DNA of 64,000 bases, taken from the NCBI GenBank assembly GCA_965213625.1, contig CBDBZU010000004.1, positions 58,126 through 122,125 of the forward strand. The letters run 5' to 3'. The notes under the pieces were generated by a model. The model saw only the letters and a program-made list of their open reading frames with translations. It searched no databases and was not told the origin of the DNA. The stretch is from a bacterium (lineage in GTDB: Bacteria; UBA8248). Positions within the stretch are counted from its first letter, which is position 1, and each line of letters starts with the position of its first letter. This document shows positions 12,173 through 49,511 of this stretch, in pieces. Made by a program: the position numbers and the translations under genes.

Positions 12173-13110
12173 GTCGGGTAGGGCACTGGCGCGCGCACCT
12201 TTAGGCGGAGGGTTTCCAGCCCTGCCCTTTCGGTTCCAGGGTGGGGTCACAGTTCCGCCTTGAGCCACGTTTCCAGCCGCCCCCCCTAAAATTCCGTACG
12301 TCGAGTTTTCCTCGGTACGGCTTCCAGCAACAGGCACCTCCCAGTTTGGAGTGGAGTATTCCGCGGGAACACCGGGGTTTAAGACCGACCCTGCCATACC
12401 CCTCGGCGGGTCCAACGTTTACTCCGCCCTCAGGCTTCACCATGTGCAGAGCGCTTTCCCCCGCCTCTGTGTGCGGGCTGCCCGCCACGGTGTCGCCACC
12501 TGTGCCCAGAGGTCCTCGCTCCGGGTGGGTTGTGTTCTCCCACCCTTCATCGCTTGGCGACCTCGTCCGCCAGTCTGGAGGTCTCCGTCTCACTTCCCGG
12601 CGCCCCGGTTATAAAGACGGTCTTCGACATTCACAGGGTCATCCTGTCATGACCTCCACACCTTCCGGACTTTCACTGCGCTACTTTCGAGTATTGCCGC
12701 CTTCAATACGCCGGGAGCCCCGGTTCGTGCGCCTCAGTTTCTTCTGCACCGGCACTGGCCATCGGTTAGGAGGGAGACCCTTGGCAACTCCATCTACCCC
12801 GCAAATCAGCTTCACGCGGGAAGTCCTTGTTTCGACGCTTCATCCGTTCACTTTCGTTACGGTCCTACTCGTTGCTTGCCTGCCGGGCTGATCGCACACG
12901 AGCGGCACGGCGGCCCCTCTGTACCCCGAGGCTTTTACGTCCGGGCTTCCAGAGCGCCGGGTCGCCCCGTACGTCTGCTGGATATGACTACGGCGCCAAA
13001 CTGAGAATTGCGCCGGCGGGACTTTCACCCGCTAGTACCGCAGTTAGTCTCGCTGCACCCCTCCCGCAGGACTTTCACCAGCTGCACTGACACCAGTTAG
13101 CCTGGCGCAC
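12173..13110 (-). ncRNA. ORF-less group II intron-like RNA (element B)
   Basis: The minus strand starts GTGCGCCAGGCTAAC at 13110. A 34-nt domain V-like hairpin sits at 12323->12290 (AAGCCGUAC CGAG GAAAA CUCG AC GUACGG AAUU, with a 2-nt AC bulge). The element ends ...GCCCUACCCGAC at 12173, with a UA bulge 7 nt from the end. There is no credible ORF on either strand. Confidence 0.45.
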
Positions 13111-13123
13111 ACCCCATCGCTTG

Positions 13124-15399
13124 GTCGGGTAGGAGGGGGCATTGCTGCGCCCCTCCCCCCACAGACCCGAGCGTGCGCGATTGACACACTCGGTTCCTCA
13201 CCTGACAGGTTCGCTCAAGGGGTTGTCACCCTTGCTCCGCAGGTCGAGGCATTCCTCGCCTGTTTGGCTATCCACTGCTGTTTCGTGTACGTGTTGGTGG
13301 AACTCAGAGTTTCCTCCAGCGTTTCCCATCAGTGGCTCTGTACAGATGACGCCCCGCTTCCCTCCAGTGGGTCCCGGTGGCCACGGTTCCCCGCCTTCAG
13401 CGGTACTATCAGGGCGCTACGACTTCCTGCCCTTCTCTAATCGGGACGAGCAAGTCAAGTTCCTCTGCCCTGTTTTTTCCAGCTCTGTTCCGCCTTTGGT
13501 TTTAGACGATACTCCATGGGGGTCTCGCTTCTCTACGTGATCGGCACCCGGTCCGGGGCCGTCAACAGGATGGGATCGGAGAACGAGGTGGAACAATCTC
13601 GCATACGTCCTCGCACCGTCACCGACGGAGCGGAACGGGGCAGGAAGCGAACTCACCTCGTCCCTCGTCCCCACGGGAGCATCCTCCGCCAGATCGGAAG
13701 CTGCCGTAGTATTCGGATTCTTCTCCTCTTGGATTCCCAAGGTCAGGCGGCTACGTCATCCACGCCGTCGCGTTTCCAGCGGAACTCGCTGCCATCCATC
13801 CATATGCGGTGCATGATGACGCCGAGCCGGCGGGCAAGCGCAACCTTCGCGCGCGCCTTGCCGCGACGCTTCGCCACACCCATCGCCCAGGCTTTCAGCC
13901 ATGACCACCGCGTCGTGCGCCCGAGCAAGGCGTTGGCGGCTTCGTAGAGCGCCGCGCGCATCATCGCGTCGCCGCACTTGGAGATTCTTCCCGTTCGGTC
14001 GACCTCTCCGGATTGCCATTTGCGAGGCGCAAGCCCGAAGTGCGCGCCCACCGAGCGCGAACGAGCAAAACGCGATGGCACGTCGACGCTCGCCCGGAAG
14101 GTGAGCGCCGTCACCGGACCCACGCCGGGGACCGTCATCAGGCGACGGCAGACCGGGTCGACGCGCACCGCCTCCAGCATCATCCTGTGCAGCCGGACGT
14201 ATTCCGCCAGCAACGCCGCTCGCGCCCGCAGCATCGGCTTCACCAGGCCCGCCAGCGCCGGGCGCTCCGCGACCAGTCCAAGCACCCGCGCCTCCAGCCC
14301 GCGGCGGGTGACCTTGCCCATCTTCAGCCCGAAGTTGCGCAGCGTGCCCCGGATGTTGGCCTCGGCGTCGCACAACTGCTTCAGCATGAACCTGCGGTTG
14401 GCGAGGAGCATTCGTTTCTCCTGGCTCGACACCGTCTTCACGTGCACCGGGCGAATCAGGTTCGCGCGAACCAGCTGGGCGATCCCGCGCGCGTCGTCAC
14501 GGTCGCTCTTGTTCACCGTCGCAGATAGTATGGCCTTCAACTGCCGCGTCTCGGCGCAAACCACCGGGAGCCCGGCCTCGGCCAGGCCGTCATGGAGCCA
14601 CTGCGACAGCGGCCCCGCCTCAAGACAGATGCGCGTCACGCCGAAGTCCAGCCCGGTGAAGAACGCCGCGAGGGCCGCGGGTTCGCTCGCGACCTTCGCC
14701 TCCCGGACGATCCCGCCGTCCACGTCCACCACGCACACGCTCGTCCACTCCAACGACACGTCGAGTCCTGCAAAGTAGTTCATGACTGCTCCTCCTGCGG
14801 GCGCGTAGAGACCGGACCATCCCGGCCTCGCCTCGATCATATGACAGAGGAACATCCCCTACACGCGGTAGTTCGAGGGCCGACCCGATTATCCCATCTC
14901 GCATCTCCTTCGGCTTATTGTTTTCACCAGCCGGTTCCGCGGGCGCCTGCCGGGTTCGTGTCCGCCATGGGGCGCTCCCGCCGCCGTGCAAGCCCGGCGA
15001 CGGACCGGGGTCTGGATTTTCATGCTGGCCGTCCCCTTTCCAGCGTTCTTGCCCACGGGCAAGAGCAGGATCTCCCAGGTTCCCTGGCGACCCATCCCCG
15101 TAACTTTGCGCCGGTCCACGACCCCGGACGACCCGTTGCGCCTCGCCGATAGCGGCGCTTCCGGTGCTGCCCCCACACGATTAACAATGAAGGCGTCGTC
15201 GATTCACCGATTTCGAGGCTTACCCCACCGCTTCGTCACCTGCTGTCTACGCTTCACGACGCACGTTGCCGCACGCCATGCAAGACTCGCTTCCGGCTGG
15301 CTGGCTTCGCCTTTGCCGGGCGGGAGTCGAACCCGCTGGGTCGCTACGAGAGGTTTCAGGTCATGGCGTCCTCCTCTCCAGGGCTTAGCCTGGCGCAAT
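13124..15399 (-). mobile_element. Group II intron-like RNA (element A) containing an IS110-family recombinase gene
   Basis: Minus strand: a domain V-like 34-nt hairpin at 13196->13163 (GAACCGAGU GUGU CAAUC GCGC AC GCUCGG GUCU). It is followed directly by a domain VI-like hairpin with a bulged UA, ending ...CCUCCUACCCGAC at 13124. The candidate 5' end is TTGCGCCAGGCTAAG at 15399. The IS110 ORF occupies the position where an intron-encoded protein would sit. Confidence 0.35.
13743..14783 (-). CDS. IS110-family (DEDD/RuvC-like) transposase/recombinase
   Basis: MNYFAGLDVSLEW...CLEAGPLS...NKSDRDDARGIA (DEDD N-terminal domain) and PGVGPVTALTF...GLAPRKWQSGEVDRTGRISKCGD (Transposase_20-type C-terminal domain). 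Start chosen at ATG 14783, behind the SD AGGAGGAG; the ORF track extends to 14855. Confidence 0.9.
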   Translation of the reverse strand: MNYFAGLDVSLEWTSVCVVDVDGGIVREAKVASEPAALAAFFTGLDFGVTRICLEAGPLSQWLHDGLAEAGLPVVCAETRQLKAILSATVNKSDRDDARGIAQLVRANLIRPVHVKTVSSQEKRMLLANRRFMLKQLCDAEANIRGTLRNFGLKMGKVTRRGLEARVLGLVAERPALAGLVKPMLRARAALLAEYVRLHRMMLEAVRVDPVCRRLMTVPGVGPVTALTFRASVDVPSRFARSRSVGAHFGLAPRKWQSGEVDRTGRISKCGDAMMRAALYEAANALLGRTTRWSWLKAWAMGVAKRRGKARAKVALARRLGVIMHRIWMDGSEFRWKRDGVDDVAA

Positions 15400-15402
15400 A
15401 AA

Positions 15403-15423
15403 CGTTCGGCGACAGGGTGATGG
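15403..15423. repeat. Left terminal inverted repeat of the IS66-type element
   Basis: Perfect 21/21 reverse-complement match with 18743-18763. Confidence 0.85.
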
Positions 15424-15509
15424 CGCCGGGTTTACTCATTCCGGACTTAAGCAAAAGGTTCTTGTTGAGGGGCTGGTAACATCATCCGGCATGTGGTAAT
15501 CATGTCGGC

Positions 15510-17857
15510 ATGAAGATTTGCACGGAAGGTGTCGAGACGAAGCCGGCGTTGGTCGAGAGGCCGAATGAGCCATGGCCTCATTCCCCTGATTTGTCCACAA
15601 CCGCAGAGGCGTACTGGCGTTCGCAGTACGAGCGCGAGCGTGCGCGCGCGGAGGCGGCGGAGGCGCGCTGCGAGGAGTTGCGGTGGGCGGAAGTGGATTC
15701 GCGCGCCCGTGCGGGTAGGCTGAAGCGGCAGTTCGACGTCTGCCGGAAGAAGCTCGAGGAGGCCGCCGGTGAGGCGAAGGAAGCCCGCCGCGCGGCGAAG
15801 GACGCGCTGTCGCTCAAGACGGAAGTGGAGCGGCTGGAGAAGCTGCTTGCGGAAGCAGGGGTCGAGCCGCGCAAGCGCAGCCCGCTCATGTCGCTGCGCA
15901 TGGAGGTCGTCCGGCTTCGCAAGGAGCTCTCGGGCGTGCCGTCGCCGGGGGAGGCGGGGCGGGTGCGCAAGGCCCTGGAGGAGCGCAGGGAGACGATTCA
16001 TGCCCTGCGCAAGGAGGTCGGCCGGCGGGAGAAGGAGGTCGCCCGGCTGGAGGAGCGACTGGACCGGGAGAAGCAGAAGTCGGCGGCTCACAAAGAGACC
16101 ATCCGGGGCCTGGACGAGGAGGCCATCGGGCTCTACAGGAAGTTGCGGCGATTGCGCGACCAGGCGGAGGTGGTCGAGTCGTTGTCCGCGGAGGTTTACC
16201 GTCTTAAAGTCTCCCTGGGAGCCGCAGGCATCGCGACCGAACGACTGAAGGCGCGGTTGTTGCGCGCAATGGAGGCGGCGCGCTCGAGGTCGCCGTCCCG
16301 TGCGGACGAGGAACTGCGCAAGGCCCTGGGGAGGTCGCGGCGCCAGAAGACGGCGCTCGGGTCCCTGTCCAGGGAGAATGCGCGGCTTCGCCGGGCGCTA
16401 CGCAAGTCAGAGACCCGCCGGGCGCGTCTGGAAGCCGAGCTCGCGAAGCTTCGCGCCACGGGAGTGGTGCTGGCGAAGAGGCTGTTCGGGCGCAAGAGCG
16501 AGCGGCAGGAGAAGCCGCGCTCGGAGCGCAGGCGCGGCGGGCAGCCCGGCGCCCGGGGCCATGGCCGCACCCCTCGTCCCGCGCTCGAGGAGAGGACGGA
16601 AGTTCGCAACCCGCCGCCCGCGTCTGCGCCTGTTGCGGGCAGCCCTACGTGGCCAACGGCGCGCGTGTATCGAGCCTCGTCGAGATCGAGGTCTCGGCCC
16701 ACAAGCGCGTCATCCGCCGTCCGCGGTGGCGCCGGGGGTGCGGTTGCGCGTCGTCTCCCATGGAGGTGTCGGCGCCGCCCGCGCCGCGCCTGTTCGCGGG
16801 CACGTCCTTCGGGACGAGCGTATGGGCGCGCTTCCTGTTCGAGCGCTACGCCTGCTTCCGCCCGCTGCGCCGGGTTGCCGCGTGGCTCTCCGACCAGGGG
16901 CTTACCGTCTCGGCGGGGACGCTGGGTGACAGCGCGCACCGCTTCACGCCCCTGTTCGAGCCGCTGGCCGGGGCGATCCTCGCCCGCCAGAACGAGTCTA
17001 CGCTGCGCCACGGGGACGAGACGACCTGGCGGATACAGTCGCTTCGCGAGCAGGGGCGATCGAGCCGCGCCTGGCTGTGGACATCGGTAAGCACGGACTC
17101 CGTCTACTTCCACGTCGACCCCTCGCGGGGCGCCGGGGTCGCGATGAAGCTGTTCGGCGCGGCCGGCCGCCATACGGTCCTCGTCTGCGACCGCTACAGC
17201 GCCTACAAGAAGCTGGCGCGCGAACTCGACGGCGCCGTAATCCTATCCTTCTGTTGGAGCCACCAAAGAAGAACCTTTATCGACAGCGCGGCCGGCGAGG
17301 CGCGCCTGACGCCGTGGTGCGAGAGATGGATCGGGCGGATCGCCTTGCTCTACCGCCTGAACGAGGCGCGCCTGGCCCGTTACGACTCAGGTCTCGAACA
17401 CCAGGACGCGGCGTTCGACGCGGCGCACGACGAATTGAAGAAGGCGCTCGAGGGCCTGTTCGCGCAGGCCCGACGCGAACTGGCCGCCCTGTCGGCGCAG
17501 GCGCCCGAGGGCAAGGCGCTTCGCTCGCTGCTGAACCACCGCGAGGGGCTGAGCGTCTTCCTCGAGCGCCCCTGGGTGCCGACAGATAATAACGCCATTG
17601 AGAGAGTGCTCAGGGGTCCCGTGATCGGGAGGCGGCTCTCGTTCGGCTCCGACAGCGAGGCCGGCACCGGGTTCACGGCGATGATGTACTCCGTCCTCGG
17701 AACGCTCTCATCGAACGGCATCGACCCGCTCCGCTGGCTCGATGCATGGCTCACCGCCTGCGCGCAGAACGGCGGCCGGGCGCCCGGGGACCTCTCCGCA
17801 TGGCTGCCCTGGTCGATGAATGCGGAGCGCAGGCGCGCCCTCACGGCGCCGGGATGA
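15510..17857 (+). pseudogene. IS66-family transposase (TnpC-type) split by a -1 frameshift near 16612-16622
   Basis: Frame 1 holds a long coiled-coil N-terminus, then LFGRKSERQEKP...GARGHGRTPRPALEERTEV. Frame 2 continues with the zinc-finger CACCGQPYVANGARVSSLVEIEVSAHKRVIRRPRW, DETTWRIQ, VLVCDRYSAYKKL, FCWSHQRRTF and TDNNAIERVLRGPVIGRRLSFGS, which are typical IS66 TnpC blocks. Confidence 0.8.
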
Positions 17858-18734
17858 CGCCGTGATCGAGTGCCGCTACTACGGACGCGACTTCACGACT
17901 GATGAGATGACGCTGCTGCGCGCGCTGATCACCGGCCCTCCCGCGCTCAATCGCAACGTGCTCTCCAAGGAGTTCTGCCGGCGCATCGGCTGGTTCAAGC
18001 CCGACGGCGGACTCAAGGACATGATGGCCCGGGTGACCATGCTCGCCATGCACAGAGACGGCCTGATCACGCTTCCCCCGCCGAAGCGCCCGCGGCACCC
18101 GGCCCGGCCGATCGTCTTCGGGCCAGACACCGAAGCGCCTCTCATCCCGGCGCCCGAGACCCTCGACGAGGTCCGTCCCCTCGGGATGCGCATCGTCGTG
18201 CGTGGAACCCGCGAGGGAAGGCTCTGGAACGAGTTCGTCGCCCGCTACCACTACCTCGGCTACAAGACCCTCGTCGGCGCCCAGATGCGCTACGCCGTAC
18301 ACGACCGCGACGGCAGGCCCCTCGCCATGCTCGGCTTCTCCACCGCCGCGTGGAAGCTCGCCCCGCGCGATGCCTTCATCGGCTGGACGCCCAGGCTGCG
18401 CGAGAAGAACCTTCCCCTCGTGGTCGACAACCCGAGGTTCCTCATCCTGCCATAGATCAAAATCCCCAACCTCGGCTCGCATCTCCTCGCCATCCTTCGC
18501 AGGCGACTGCCCGACGACTGGACCGAGCGCTATGGCACGACCCCCGTCCTCATCGAGACCTTCGTCGAGACGCCACGCTACACCGGCGCCGTCTACAGGG
18601 CTTCAGGATGGATTCACGTCGGAACCACACAGGGACGCGGACGCTACGACAGGTACAAACGCCACGACAAACCCAAAAAGGATGTCTGGCTACGTCCCCT
18701 CCGCAACAACTGGAAGAAAGTCCTCAACCGCTGA
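17820..18734 (+). pseudogene. DUF4338 (Druantia DruA-like) protein gene with an in-frame TAG at 18453-18455
   Basis: ARYHYLGYKTLVGAQMRYAV...LGFSTAAWKLAPRDAFIGW...VVDNPRFLILP[TAG]IKIPNLGSHLLAILRRRLPDDWTERYGTTPVLIETFVETPRYTGAVYRASGWIHVGTTQGRGRYDR. The same frame continues for 93 codons after the stop. From memory, family members carry Trp at the stop position. Confidence 0.7.
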
Positions 18735-18742
18735 AACAACTC

Positions 18743-18763
18743 CCATCACCCTGTCGCCGAACG
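18743..18763. repeat. Right terminal inverted repeat of the IS66-type element
   Basis: Perfect 21/21 reverse-complement match with 15403-15423. Confidence 0.85.
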
Positions 18764-19178
18764 GTTACCTACCCGGCCCCCGACAGGCGCACCCTTGGAT
18801 ACGCAGGCGTTGTAACGAATCCGCTTGCGGTTTGATTACGGGTTATGGAGGGTGGATCTCGGAGACTCGGTAAAAGAAAATGATATCAATATGTTAGATG
18901 GATATGTGTCCAATCGAAACTAGTGGATGCACCTGATTTCTCGAAAAACCCCGTGAATTTGTCTAATTTTATCGATATTTCCAGATATTATTATTTGCAT
19001 ATTTCATGATCTGCGCCTGGACGAATCGCTCACCCGCCTCCATCGGTCCGCGCCCGCTCCATCTCCTGAAAAACCAATGGCCGACGGACGGCCTTCTCAG
19101 CATACCCCATCGCCCCGAAAATCCCGCCACGGCAAATGCGGGTCGAACCCGACCGAGGAGGTCAGTTCCGACCGAGAA

Positions 19179-19281
19179 GGGAGGAACTGACCGACTGAGA
19201 AGGGAGGAACTGACCGACCGGGGAGGGAGGAACTGACCGACTGAGAAGGGAGGAACTGACCGACCGGGGAGGGAGGAACTG
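19179..19281. repeat. Tandem repeat, 23-bp period (46-bp super-period), ~4.5 copies
   Basis: gggaggaactgaccgac + tgagaa or cgggga alternating, at 19179, 19202, 19225 and 19248, with a partial copy at 19271. It is preceded by ggtcagttcc (19163-19172), which is complementary to ggaactgacc of the first unit. Confidence 0.9.
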
Positions 19282-19635
19282 CTTCGCCGGCCGACCGGGC
19301 AGGTCAATCGTGGCTGGGGAAGGAGCGGTTGTTGTTTGCGCGCACCGACCCAAACGATCGGCCCTTCCAACTTACAGGCGCTCCCCTCCTCTCCCTTCAC
19401 CGCGAATGCCCTCCCCGGTTCCAGGCCGGACCACCCACTCCATACGCATGAAACGTGGCGGCGCTCTCCGGTGAAGCCGCATCAAACGCCCCACCAGATA
19501 CGATTTTGTCTCACCGAGGCGTTATGTTAGATTCATTCCATCATCTGGATTTAAAAGTTCGGCGAAAGTAATTCCGGGAGAAGACGAACTTCACGTCACC
19601 GCGCAGAAGCAGGCGGTGGAAACCCGAGGTTTCAC

Positions 19636-23270: not shown

Positions 23271-23371
23271 GAAATTACTCCTCAAGGTGTGTTGGAAACC
23301 CGGCTTCGGATGTGGGCGGTTTATGGGTGTTCGCTTAGGGGAAGGTATTGCCGACCTTCGAGATTACCCAC

Positions 23372-23510
23372 CGTCATTCCGGCGCATGCCGGAATCCAGA
23401 GCCGATGAGAAGGAGAAAAAGCAGCACTCCATTTTTTCACTCATTTGCGATGAATGATGGTAAAAGAACAAAAACAAAGTCACTGGATTCCGGCATGCGC
23501 CGGAATGACG
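23372..23510. repeat. MITE-like unit bounded by inverted hairpin repeats CGTCATTCCGGCGCATGCCGGAATCCA
   Basis: 23372-23398 and 23484-23510 are reverse complements of each other, and each is itself a hairpin. The same module occurs at 25034-25060 and 25215-25241, with partial copies at 21677-21689 and 21855-21868. Confidence 0.6.
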
Positions 23511-23643
23511 AACAAAACCAAACCTTCCGTATTCTCTTCCTTCTCGTTCAGCAAGGTCAAAAAAAGGGGGGGGGTAATTATTAAATTCACTCCGGTGGGG
23601 AGTGATCTCTGCAGGGATCGCAAGTCTGGCCTCTGCTAACAGG

Positions 23644-24982: not shown

Positions 24983-25279
24983 GGGGCTGTTGAAAAAACC
25001 TTAACTCGCTTGAGATTGACCTTTGCCTTTGCTCGTCATTCCGGCGAAAGCCGGAATCCATTTTCTCCTTTGTCTTTGGCCTGGACGTCCTCGCTCCCAG
25101 CGAGGAAGATACGGACGCCGCCTCATATATCAGACTAATCCGTTCCGGATTCAGGCGCGGCGATCCCTCCCGCGAGTCGGAATCAAATACAAAAACGCAA
25201 GCAAAATCATAAAATGGATTCCGGCTTTCGCCGGAATGACGGTGGTTTTCCCGCATCAAGGGTCTTTTTCAACAACCCC
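24983..25279. repeat. MITE-like element (~297 bp) with terminal and subterminal inverted repeats
   Basis: The outer inverted repeats are ggggctgttgaaaaaacc (24983-25000) and ggtctttttcaacaacccc (25261-25279). The inner inverted hairpins are at 25034-25060 and 25215-25241. The TTTTTCAACA motif recurs at ~12045 and ~33285. Confidence 0.6.
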
Positions 25280-49150: not shown

Positions 49151-49511
49151 TGGTGGAGGCGGCGGGAATCGAACCCGCGTCCGCAAGGCTTCCGTCGTGA
49201 GCGTCTACGCGCGTAGCCGGTGGAAAGGGTTTCGCCCGGTCTCAAGCCCACCGGCGGGCCATCCTCCGGGCTAGTCCGATTAGATTTCGCCTAGCAGGCT
49301 CCGGACCGAAACCTGGGTCGGCTAGTCCGCATCATGACGTTCCGCACCTCCCCCGCGGACGAGGCGAGGGGGAACGCTCGCTAGCGTTTAAGCAGCGAGA
49401 GCCAGCTCGTTGTCGGCTGGTGTGATTTTGCCACATTGATAACGGGGCCAAGTGGCGTCCCCGGCGCGCAGCTCAGACTTCAAATCCTCCCGTCGAAGCC
49501 AGATCGCCCCC
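49151..49511 (-). ncRNA. ssrA: tmRNA (SsrA)
   Basis: Minus strand: 5' GGGGGCGATCTGGCTTCGACGGG ... 3' GGACGCGGGTTCGATTCCCGCCGCCTCCACCA. The internal tag ORF GCC GAC AAC GAG CTG GCT CTC GCT GCT TAA encodes ADNELALAA. The gene is adjacent to smpB. Confidence 0.9.

What the first reader, a model, noticed from the sequence alone, without database searches (positions are those of the whole stretch)
13124..15399. Group II intron-like element A whose only ORF is an IS110 DEDD recombinase instead of a reverse transcriptase
On the minus strand, 13196->13163 is a second 34-nt domain V-like hairpin (lower helix CCGAGU/GCUCGG, AC bulge, 4-bp upper helix). After 2 nt comes a near-textbook domain VI: GUGGGGGGAGGGGC / GCCCCCUCC-UA-CCCGAC, with the bulged A 7 nt from the terminal AC at 13124. 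The stop of an intact IS110-family gene lies about 545 nt upstream. About 616 nt upstream of that gene's start is UUGCGCCAGGCUAAG (15399), sharing 13 nt with the 5' end of element B. The IS110 gene therefore sits where a domain IV intron-encoded protein normally sits, at the usual distance from the 5' end, and no RT or maturase frame is present. One explanation is that an IS110 inserted into domain IV of an ORF-less intron; the long 545-nt tail could then hold its bridge RNA. The other is a chimeric ribozyme-plus-recombinase element, analogous in concept to group I IStrons. A possible alternative 5' end, GUGCGCCUGUCGG, lies at 18792 on the far side of the IS66-type insertion.
Basis: partly seen in the sequence, partly recalled or inferred. 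Interest (0 to 1): 0.85.

Follow-up and report, generated by a model that had tools for sequence, protein, structure and literature searches.

The report
IS110 element nested in dead intron
This is a pile-up of ordinary mobile DNA: a group II intron that lost its reverse-transcriptase gene was later invaded, in a tolerant loop, by a self-contained RNA-guided IS110-type insertion sequence, so it is not a new ribozyme-plus-recombinase hybrid.

Summary
Window 15398-13124 (minus strand) is a group II intron: Rfam D1-D4 model at 132 bits, D5/D6 at 32 bits, and 75-77% identity to full-length rhizobial introns. Its only intact ORF is an IS110-family DEDD recombinase.

The hybrid-element reading is refuted. 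The recombinase belongs to a complete 1,465-nt IS (14895-13431). The same IS, with the same ends, occurs in 36 other fetched loci (roughly two dozen distinct sites), and none of them has a group II signal. Once the IS is removed, the two intron halves align as one block to related introns, which carry an uninterrupted site there.

The 312-nt non-coding tail of the IS encodes its bridge/seek RNA. One segment (13647-13638) is the exact reverse complement of the GG core plus the right flank. Another (13604-13596) is identical to the 9 nt left of the insertion point. Both segments covary with the flanks across IS lineages.

Separately, the intron has lost about 1.2 kb of RT/maturase ORF; about 32 N-terminal codons remain. 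Its D5 loop is not GNRA. No RT is encoded anywhere in the 64 kb.

The intron sits between nt 1 and 2 of the terminal inverted repeat of an IS66-like element.

Verdict: a nested insertion of known kinds. It is of low to moderate interest, mainly as a clean natural example of guide reprogramming.

The parts
14896..15398 (-). Group II intron A, 5' segment: 5' end UUGCG, domains I-III and the start of domain IV. It includes the 13 nt GGAGATGCGAGAT (14908-14896), which are the left half of the IS target.
   Evidence: Rfam D1D4-6 at 132 bits over 15329-15112. It is 75-77% identical to rhizobial introns, and Mesorhizobium/Bradyrhizobium alignments begin at 15398. L007 and L008 carry identical IS copies but different 13-mers, so the 13-mer is target, not IS.
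15178..15183 (-). Candidate EBS1 (UAAUCG), which pairs 5 of 6 with the last 6 nt of the 5' exon (CGUUUA, 15404-15399).
   Evidence: It is at the same alignment position as GTTGGG in L004, whose 5' exon ends CCCAAC. L005 and L006 also covary with their exons (coordinates). The pairing is inferred, not tested.
13431..14895 (-). Complete IS110-family insertion sequence (1,465 nt counting a GG core at each end). It starts GG-GATAATCGGG and ends TTAGAGAA-GG.
   Evidence: The same ends occur in L002 (97.7% identity) and in L007-L030 and L079-L090 (85-95% identity), all with unrelated flanks.
13743..14783 (-). IS110 DEDD recombinase gene, 346 aa, intact, with AGGAGG upstream of the ATG.
   Evidence: Pfam PF01548 (E 4e-12) and PF02371 (E 3e-22). 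The identical protein occurs in other assemblies, and there are about 8,000 homologues.
13433..13742 (-). 3' non-coding region of the IS, encoding the bridge/seek RNA.
   Evidence: Conserved blocks are interrupted by two variable segments that covary with the flanks across lineages. This is the layout described for IS with a downstream non-coding region (PMC11187229).
13638..13647 (-). Target guide V2 (CUUCCUGCCC): the reverse complement of the GG core plus right flank GGGCAGGAAG (13432-13423).
   Evidence: 10/10 match here. L002 carries ACCCGGTCC against GGACCGGGT, L008 carries CTGTCGGCTC against GAGCCGACAG, and L013 and L089 match 9/9.
13596..13604 (-). Target guide V3 (AUGCGAGAU): same sense as the 9 nt left of the insertion point (14904-14896), so it is complementary to the bottom strand.
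   Evidence: 9/9 match here. L011 has AGGAAAGAT in both places, L018 has ACGGAAGAT in both, and L007-L010 match 8-9/9.
13197..13430 (-). Intron A, rest of domain IV: a conserved stretch upstream of the ORF, then the remnant of the RT gene's first ~32 codons (13310-13215: TLSSTNTYTKQQWIAKQARNAS...), then the junction of a ~1.2 kb deletion.
   Evidence: 78-80% identity to relatives over 13430-13252. The composite aligns to L004 429-1060 and then jumps to 2313-2407. L004 reads TLSPTNVYTKRQWIAEQAREHPERVFTSLHH.
13164..13196 (-). Domain V. The helix and the 2-nt bulge are kept, with two compensatory pair changes relative to relatives. The loop is UCAAUCG rather than the GAAA tetraloop.
   Evidence: Rfam RF00029 at 32.4 bits. 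Folding and comparison with L004 and L005.
13124..13162 (-). Domain VI with a bulged A. The 3' end is ...CCUACCCGAC.
   Evidence: Rfam alignment and RNAfold.
15399..18768 (+). IS66-like element that forms the 5' exon of intron A. It has 25-nt terminal inverted repeats, a frameshifted transposase and a DruA/DUF4338-like ORF. Its first base (G on the + strand) is at 13123, separated from the rest by intron A.
   Evidence: Inverted repeat 15399-15423 / 18743-18767, 96% complementary. Frame translations show IS66 TnpC-like sequence split over two frames. DruA Pfam hit for 17820-18455.

Best explanation
This is three mobile elements nested inside one another.

1. An IS66-like element occupies 15399-18768.
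2. A group II intron inserted by reverse splicing between nt 1 and 2 of that element's left inverted repeat, antisense to the transposase. The intron belongs to the lineage matched by Rfam D1D4-6, which starts UUGCG and is related to rhizobial plasmid introns.
3. The intron lost about 1.2 kb of its RT/maturase ORF by an internal deletion. Domains I-III, V and VI and about 32 N-terminal RT codons remain.
4. A complete 1,465-nt IS110-family element inserted into domain IV, about 120 nt upstream of the former ORF.

The last insertion was RNA-guided, as is now established for this family. The IS encodes a bridge/seek RNA in its 312-nt 3' non-coding region. One guide segment pairs with the top strand of GG+GCAGGAAG. 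The other pairs with the bottom strand of ATGCGAGAT. The DEDD recombinase therefore joined the circular IS to the site ATGCGAGAT-GG-GCAGGAAG in the intron.

The order of steps 3 and 4 is unknown.

Shown here: the ends of the IS, the uninterrupted site in relatives, the guide/flank matches and their covariation, the deletion, and the absence of any RT in the window.

Inferred: the mechanism of each insertion, and that the intron is now inactive or dependent on an RT supplied in trans.
For: **The intron is real**
- D1D4-6 scores 132 bits. D5/D6 scores 32.4 bits with E 0.003.
- It is 75-77% identical to introns in Rhizobium, Mesorhizobium and Bradyrhizobium plasmids.
- The three relatives whose 5' end was held start TTGCG at the aligned position (the fourth was cut just inside it).
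- The EBS1 candidate covaries with the 5' exon in relatives and pairs 5/6 here.

**The IS is autonomous**
- L002 carries it at 97.7% identity with unrelated flanks.
- The close copies fetched and analysed (85-95% identity) share the anchors GGGRTAATCGGG and TTAGAGAAGG in many different gene neighbourhoods.
- 36 such loci show no group II match at Rfam gathering thresholds.

**Relatives have an uninterrupted site**
- With the IS removed, intron A aligns to L004 in one 645-nt HSP across the junction (alignment).

**Guides match the site**
- V2 matches 10/10 and V3 matches 9/9 at this site.
- Across 14 copies of the IS compared (several share a guide set), each copy's guides match its own flanks at 7.9/9 and 7.4/9 on average. 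Against the flanks of other lineages they match 6.25/9 and 5.5/9.
- The sister copy L002 differs from the window copy mainly in V2, and each V2 matches its own right flank.
- The layout agrees with the published description of IS with a downstream non-coding region: top-strand complement 5' of bottom-strand match, natural reprogramming (PMC11187229).

**The RT is deleted**
- The composite jumps from L004 position 1060 to 2313.
- tblastn with a relative's RT finds nothing in the 64 kb.
Against: - No uninterrupted copy of this exact intron (100% identical target) was found. Two metagenome scans returned nothing. The uninterrupted-site argument therefore rests on relatives at about 75% identity.
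- The exact left boundary of the IS is inferred. The window copy and L002 share all 13 nt left of the core, although only 9 of these are explained by V3. An IS starting at 14908 is therefore not fully excluded. In that case intron A would simply lack about 13 nt of domain IV that relatives have.
- The left and right cores differ (GG versus GA) in one lineage (L007-L010).
- D5/D6 scores below Rfam's gathering cut-off.
- No expression or splicing data are available.
- The IS66-like element has no 8-bp target duplication, so the history of its flanks is not fully resolved.
Confidence: 0.9

Rival explanations
1. This is a chimeric mobile element, conceptually like group I IStrons. The group II ribozyme and the IS110 recombinase would form one co-evolved unit, the recombinase would move the DNA, and the ribozyme would splice the element out of host transcripts.
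For: - The IS lies in sense orientation inside domain IV, the part of the ribozyme that tolerates cargo.
- Domains I-III, V and VI are all still recognisable.
- The IS guides match the intron sequence perfectly.
Against: - The IS has its own ends, which lie well inside the intron.
- It occurs with those ends in 36 other fetched loci (roughly two dozen distinct sites), and none has a group II signal.
- Intron relatives carry an RT, not an IS110.
- The intron+IS combination was seen only at this locus and in a second assembly of the same locus.
- The recombinase's guides define a target inside the intron, not at the intron's borders.
Confidence: 0.02
2. The ORF-less intron is still a working ribozyme, mobilised and spliced with an RT/maturase supplied in trans by a full-length copy elsewhere in the genome. 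The IS110 rides along as cargo, or uses domain IV as a harmless landing site.
For: - The deletion removes the ORF cleanly while keeping D5 and D6.
- The D5 helix is maintained by compensatory changes relative to relatives.
- D1-D4 scores as high as in intact relatives: 132 versus 124-125 bits.
- A second ORF-less intron (B) sits 13 nt downstream, so two independent ORF losses in place would be needed otherwise.
- ORF-less derivatives mobilised in trans are described in the abstract of PMC2882425 (seen only; the paper itself was not read).
Against: - The D5 loop is UCAAUCG instead of the GAAA tetraloop of relatives. That tetraloop makes a tertiary contact with domain I (established group II structure).
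- D5/D6 scores below the Rfam cut-off.
- No RT is present in the 64 kb.
- No second copy of the deletion junction was found in metagenomes.
- D5 differs between the two assemblies of this locus: the window has GTGTG where L001 has GTGCG.
Confidence: 0.08
3. The IS110 insertion itself destroyed the RT gene, so that the IS replaced the ORF in a single event.
For: Both lesions lie in domain IV, and the recombinase is the only ORF left.
Against: - Between the right end of the IS (13431) and the deletion junction (about 13215) lie about 215 nt of colinear intron sequence, 78-80% identical to relatives. This stretch includes the start of the RT gene.
- The two lesions are therefore not adjacent.
- IS110-type recombination is conservative and does not delete flanking DNA (established for the family; PMC11187229).
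Confidence: 0.03

Closest known systems
IS110/IS1111-type insertion sequences guided by a bridge RNA or seekRNA (ISEc11, ISPa11, IS621; Siddiquee et al. 2024, PMC11187229; the IS621 bridge-RNA work is cited from my own knowledge)
   Same: - DEDD recombinase with the PF01548 and PF02371 domains.
- No target duplication beyond a shared core dinucleotide.
- Long non-coding region downstream of the gene.
- A top-strand complement lying 5' of a bottom-strand match in that region.
- Guides that differ between close relatives and match their own sites (natural reprogramming).
- Sister lineages target a short repeat found at many genomic sites.
- A possible promoter assembled at the circle junction: TTGCTC, 17 nt, GATAAT. 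This is my reading of the sequence and is not tested.
   Different: - The target here is domain IV of a group II intron. I found no report of such a target in the searches I ran.
- The subterminal inverted repeat is only about 8 bp (TAATCGGG/CCCGATTA).
- The terminal extensions (about 4 nt left, 7 nt right, counting the core) do not fit the 7 and 3 typical of IS1111.
Fragmented or ORF-less bacterial group II introns (the RmInt1 remnant FRE652, PMC4181065; ORF-less derivatives in Thermosynechococcus, PMC2882425 (abstract only))
   Same: - The ribozyme domains are kept while the RT/maturase gene is lost or truncated.
- It is located in another mobile element rather than in a host gene.
- Relatives in rhizobial plasmids are also often truncated.
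   Different: - Here the deletion is internal and leaves D5 and D6 in place.
- Domain IV additionally carries a complete IS.
Group I IStrons (a group I ribozyme fused to IS200/IS605 genes, Clostridioides) and group II introns carrying LAGLIDADG genes
   Same: A self-splicing RNA scaffold contains a DNA-mobility gene other than an RT.
   Different: In those systems the ribozyme and the gene recur together as a unit. Here they do not: 0 of 36 IS loci have the intron, and relatives of the intron carry an RT.

Membership tests
Group II intron | Domains I-IV secondary structure matches a curated covariance model | tested here: met
   RF02005 scores 132 bits against a gathering score of 49, with the full model covered.
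Group II intron | Domain V hairpin (about 34 nt with a 2-nt bulge) and domain VI with a bulged adenosine near the 3' end | tested here: inconclusive
   RF00029 scores 32.4 bits, E 0.003, below the gathering score of 40. The fold shows both helices, the bulge and the bulged A. The D5 loop is not GNRA, whereas relatives have GAAA.
Group II intron | 5' GUGYG and 3' AY boundaries | tested here: not met
   The 5' end is UUGCG. The three relatives whose 5' end was held share it, and a IIB intron with UUGCG is published (PMC7923331). I therefore read this as typical of the lineage, not as decay. The 3' end is AC.
Group II intron | EBS1-IBS1 pairing with the 5' exon | tested here: met
   UAAUCG (15183-15178) pairs 5/6 with CGUUUA. 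The homologous position in L004, L005 and L006 covaries with their exons. This was assigned by eye from the alignment.
Mobile (ORF-containing) group II intron | Intron-encoded RT/maturase in domain IV | tested here: not met
   About 1.2 kb is missing relative to L004. tblastn with a relative's RT finds nothing in the window. Only about 32 N-terminal codons remain.
IS110 family | DEDD recombinase with the N-terminal RuvC-like domain and the C-terminal Transposase_20 domain | tested here: met
   PF01548 at E 3.7e-12 and PF02371 at E 2.9e-22.
IS110 family | Discrete ends shared by copies at unrelated sites | tested here: met
IS110 family | Non-coding RNA with segments complementary to both strands of the target | tested here: met
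   V2 matches 10/10 and V3 matches 9/9 here, and both covary with the flanks across lineages. The RNA itself has not been observed.
IS1111 subgroup | Subterminal inverted repeats of 11-13 bp, with terminal extensions of 7 bp (left) and 3 bp (right) | tested here: inconclusive
   There is only an 8-bp perfect repeat, with different extensions (read). The downstream position of the non-coding region does fit the subgroup.
IStron-like ribozyme/transposase chimera | Ribozyme and mobility gene recur together as one unit with joint borders | tested here: not met
   0 of 36 loci with this IS family have a group II match. The intron's relatives carry RT genes.

The most novel reading that the evidence does not exclude
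This IS110 lineage may have been reprogrammed to use domain IV of a group II intron as a safe landing site. An insertion there is removed from transcripts by splicing. Because the IS lies in sense orientation inside an ORF-less intron that may still be mobilised in trans, the two could occasionally travel together by retromobility. The perfect 19-20 nt guide match fits the first half of this idea. Nothing here tests the second half.
Probability: 0.05. Interest if true: 0.6.

Novelty: new member of a known kind. Interest (0 to 1): 0.25.

Why it matters
It removes a tempting false lead. A group II ribozyme that had swapped its reverse transcriptase for a DEDD recombinase would have been a new class of element, and this is not one.

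What remains useful is modest:
- It is a natural case of an IS110-type element whose two guide segments match its insertion site perfectly.
- Its sister copy, 97.7% identical, differs almost only in one guide and sits at a different site. This is a clean illustration of natural guide reprogramming.
- It shows that domain IV of a group II intron can serve as a target.
- It adds a UUGCG-starting intron lineage that inserts into IS66-type elements, and a site where two ORF-less introns lie 13 nt apart.

Tried and rejected
**Exact uninterrupted site.** I searched JGI metagenome contigs for ATGCGAGATGGGCAGGAAGTCGTAG and found no hits.

**Other copies of the ORF deletion.** I searched the same collection for the deletion junction GTGACAACCCCTTGAGCGAACCTG and found no hits. 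Whether the ORF-less intron exists elsewhere, with or without the IS, stays open.

**First IS boundary.** I first took the IS to run 14908-13431, from the BLAST extent against L002. I revised this after seeing that L007 and L008-L010 carry identical IS copies but different 13-mers at that position. The 13-mer also tracks guide V3 in every lineage. The GG core is then the same at both junctions in most lineages.

**A third guide.** I looked for one in the variable stretch CCG-NNN-TGG (about 13695). It shows no consistent match to either flank or to the IS ends, so I dropped it.

**Alternative 5' end at 18792.** The 24 nt GTGCGCC...GGGTAG abut the right inverted repeat of the IS66-like element. 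No group II model scores there at E up to 5. There is also no 8-bp duplication linking it to 15398. I treat it as a chance GUGCG.

**Element B relatives.** A search for element B among plasmids found no match.

**Rfam on the IS tail.** Rfam has no family that hits the IS non-coding region at E up to 5.
Full report

Yes. On the minus strand, Rfam's group-II-D1D4-6 model matches 15329-15112 over its full length at 132 bits (gathering score 49, E 3e-37).

A permissive scan of 8-20 kb adds the D5/D6 model (RF00029) at 13198-13124. It scores 32.4 bits, E 0.003, which is below its gathering score of 40.

Folding gives two helices:
- a D5 hairpin at 13196-13164 with a 2-nt bulge;
- a D6 helix at 13162-13124 with one bulged A, followed by 6 nt to the terminal AC (position -7).

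The only long ORF that makes biological sense in between is 14783-13743, 346 aa. It carries both Pfam domains of IS110-family DEDD recombinases.

The 5' end is at 15398 rather than 15399.

**2. The intron belongs to a known lineage, and UUGCG is its normal 5' end.**

The 5' flank of the recombinase gene matches 62 plasmid records at 74-77% identity. Most are from Rhizobium, Bradyrhizobium, Mesorhizobium and Pseudomonas. The 3' flank matches 42 records at 77-80%.

Alignments to Mesorhizobium and Bradyrhizobium introns begin exactly at 15398. The three relatives whose 5' end was held (L004-L006) start TTGCG, with unrelated sequence upstream; L003 was cut just inside it and starts TGCG. A IIB intron with UUGCG boundaries has been published (PMC7923331).

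A loop at 15183-15178 (UAAUCG) sits where L004 has GUUGGG. L004's 5' exon ends CCCAAC, and L005 and L006 covary with their exons in the same way. In the window this loop pairs 5 of 6 with the last six exon bases, CGUUUA. The exon-intron junction at 15399|15398 is therefore a real reverse-splicing junction.

**3. The recombinase belongs to a complete, separable IS.**

The identical protein is encoded on a 1,667-nt Logan contig (L002). That contig matches the window at 97.7% identity over 14908-13431, and its flanks are unrelated.

More copies at 85-95% identity came from a protein search, the protein's cluster members, the contigs that encode them, and one scan of GTDB genomes. They come from Nitrospinota, 'Deltaproteobacteria' and unclassified MAGs.

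All share the anchors GGGRTAATCGGG on the left and TTAGAGAAGG on the right, about 1,465 nt apart. They lie in many different gene neighbourhoods.

Thirty-six of these loci (roughly two dozen distinct sites) were scanned with all Rfam models at gathering thresholds. None has a group II match.

**4. Relatives carry an uninterrupted site.**

I joined 15450-14909 to 13430-13090 and compared the composite with a near-full-length Rhizobium intron (L004). It gave a single 645-nt HSP at 75% identity running straight across the junction. A second HSP then jumps from L004 position 1060 to 2313, which is D5/D6 (multiple alignment).

Two things follow:
- The IS interrupts otherwise colinear domain IV sequence.
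- The intron separately lacks about 1.2 kb, the RT/maturase ORF.

Between the right end of the IS and the deletion lie about 215 nt of intron, including the first ~32 RT codons. The window reads TLSSTNTYTKQQWIAKQARNAS; L004 reads TLSPTNVYTKRQWIAEQAREHPERVFTSLHH. The IS did not replace the ORF, and the two lesions are independent.

tblastn with a relative's RT finds nothing significant anywhere in the 64 kb.

**5. The tail holds the guide RNA, and it is programmed for this site.**

I aligned the 3' non-coding regions of the IS copies. They show long invariant blocks and two short variable segments.

*Segment V2* follows GAGTTCGC. In every lineage it is close to the reverse complement of the last two IS bases plus the right flank:

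| Copy | V2 | Core + right flank |
|---|---|---|
| Window | CTTCCTGCCC | GGGCAGGAAG (10/10) |
| L002 | ACCCGGTCC | GGACCGGGT |
| L008 | CTGTCGGCTC | GAGCCGACAG |
| L013, L089 | – | 9/9 |

*Segment V3* precedes TGTTCC. It has the same sense as the 9 nt immediately left of the GG that starts the conserved IS body:

| Copy | V3 versus left 9 nt |
|---|---|
| Window, L002 | ATGCGAGAT, 9/9 |
| L011, L021, L079 | AGGAAAGAT, 9/9 |
| L018 | ACGGAAGAT, 9/9 |
| L007-L010 | 8-9/9 |

Each copy's own guides match its own flanks at 7.9/9 (V3) and 7.4/9 (V2) on average. Against the flanks of other lineages they match 6.25/9 and 5.5/9.

L007 and L008-L010 carry identical IS copies but different sequences at the 13 nt left of the GG. 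Those 13 nt are therefore target, not IS. The insert is 14895-13431, with a GG core at both junctions. The site in the intron reads ATGCGAGAT-GG-GCAGGAAG.

This is the arrangement described for IS with a downstream non-coding region. The top-strand complement lies 5' of the bottom-strand match, and natural reprogramming occurs between close relatives (PMC11187229).

The window copy and L002 differ mainly in V2, and each V2 matches its own right flank.

*Caveats.*
- The window and L002 share all 13 nt on the left although V3 explains only nine. A left end at 14908 is therefore not strictly excluded.
- One lineage has GG on the left and GA on the right.
- The RNA itself has not been observed.

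**6. State of the intron.**

D1-D4 scores as well as in intact relatives: 132 versus 124-125 bits.

The lower helix of D5 carries two compensatory pair changes relative to L004 and L005. The lineage therefore evolved under structural constraint.

However, its loop is UCAAUCG where both relatives have a GAAA tetraloop. The two assemblies of this locus also differ at one D5 position.

With no maturase in cis, an altered D5 loop and a 1.5-kb insert, I consider the intron most likely inactive. A trans-complemented remnant is possible.

**7. Context.**

The 5' exon is the left terminal inverted repeat of an IS66-like element. Its 25-nt repeats lie at 15399-15423 and 18743-18767.

The first base after the intron's 3' end (C at 13123) completes the GTAA terminus that the right end shows. 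Intron A therefore sits between nt 1 and 2 of that repeat, antisense to a frameshifted transposase.

Twelve bases further on, a second ORF-less intron (B) begins at 13110. Its D1D4-4 match scores 46.5 bits, and it has a canonical-looking D5 at 12323-12291.

The region is a graveyard of nested mobile elements.

**8. Comparison and verdict.**

Each component is a member of a known kind:
- an IS110-family element with a downstream guide RNA;
- an ORF-less derivative of a bacterial group II intron;
- an IS66-like element.

The combination works as a nest, not as a unit. I found no report of an IS110 element in a group II intron in the literature searches I ran. That is a new instance rather than a new mechanism.

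Interest is low to moderate. The appealing part is the clean natural evidence for guide-defined targeting and reprogramming.

Noticed in passing
window 12173-13110 (-): Element B is a second ORF-less group II intron, starting GTGCGCCAGGCTAAC only 13 nt after intron A's 3' end. D1D4-4 scores 46.5 bits, just under the gathering score of 49. A canonical-looking D5 lies at 12323-12291 (AGC triad, AC bulge). About 115 nt follow D5 before a ...CCCTACCCGAC end that resembles A's 3' end. RF00029 does not hit it, and it has no relatives among plasmids.
   Followed up: partly
window 15399-18768 (+), plus base 13123: This is an IS66-like element with 25-nt terminal inverted repeats. Its TnpC-like transposase is split over two frames (about 15510-17090 and 16649-17857). 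It also carries a passenger ORF with a Druantia DruA/DUF4338 domain (17820-18455, E 8e-19). No 8-bp target duplication is visible. Several Bradyrhizobium relatives of intron A also lie in or next to IS66-family transposase genes.
   Followed up: partly
L002 1-66 and 1545-1667: The sister IS copy in L002 is itself inserted in what looks like the non-coding guide region of another, more distant IS110-family element. The flank reads TTCCCGATCCCGTCTCGTTGACCGG, against TTCTCCGATCCCATCCTGTTGACGGCC in this IS. That would be an IS within an IS.
   Followed up: no
L011, L019, L021-L025, L079-L087: Sister lineages of the IS sit in the same 34-nt sequence, CCTTCCCGAGGAGGAAAGAT-GG-CCGACCCTCAAGGG, in many different gene neighbourhoods and in several MAGs. 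This suggests a REP-like repeat as their usual target.
   Followed up: partly
window 19145-19282: There are six tandem copies of a 23-nt unit (CCGACYGRGRAGGGAGGAACTGA). They lie next to an AT-rich stretch (18830-19000) that stands out in a 65% GC window.
   Followed up: no
window 18769-18792 (-): GTGCGCCTGTCGGGGGCCGGGTAG abuts the right end of the IS66-like element. It starts like a group II intron but has no model support. Its reverse complement contains CTACCCG, which is also found at the 3' ends of introns A and B. It is probably chance.
   Followed up: partly
window 23368-23522 and 25022-25245: Several copies of a palindromic repeat (CGTCATTCCGGCGAAAGCCGGAATCCA and variants) occur in both orientations. 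They look like REP or MITE sequences.
   Followed up: no
window 49151-49511 (-): A standard one-piece tmRNA gene, 172.6 bits.
   Followed up: no
L001 (ENA ERZ25070880 contig_41): A second assembly of the same locus is 99.75% identical. Its contig ends at window 14916, about 20 nt upstream of the IS left end, as expected if the IS is repeated or polymorphic in that sample. It differs from the window at one D5 position.
   Followed up: partly
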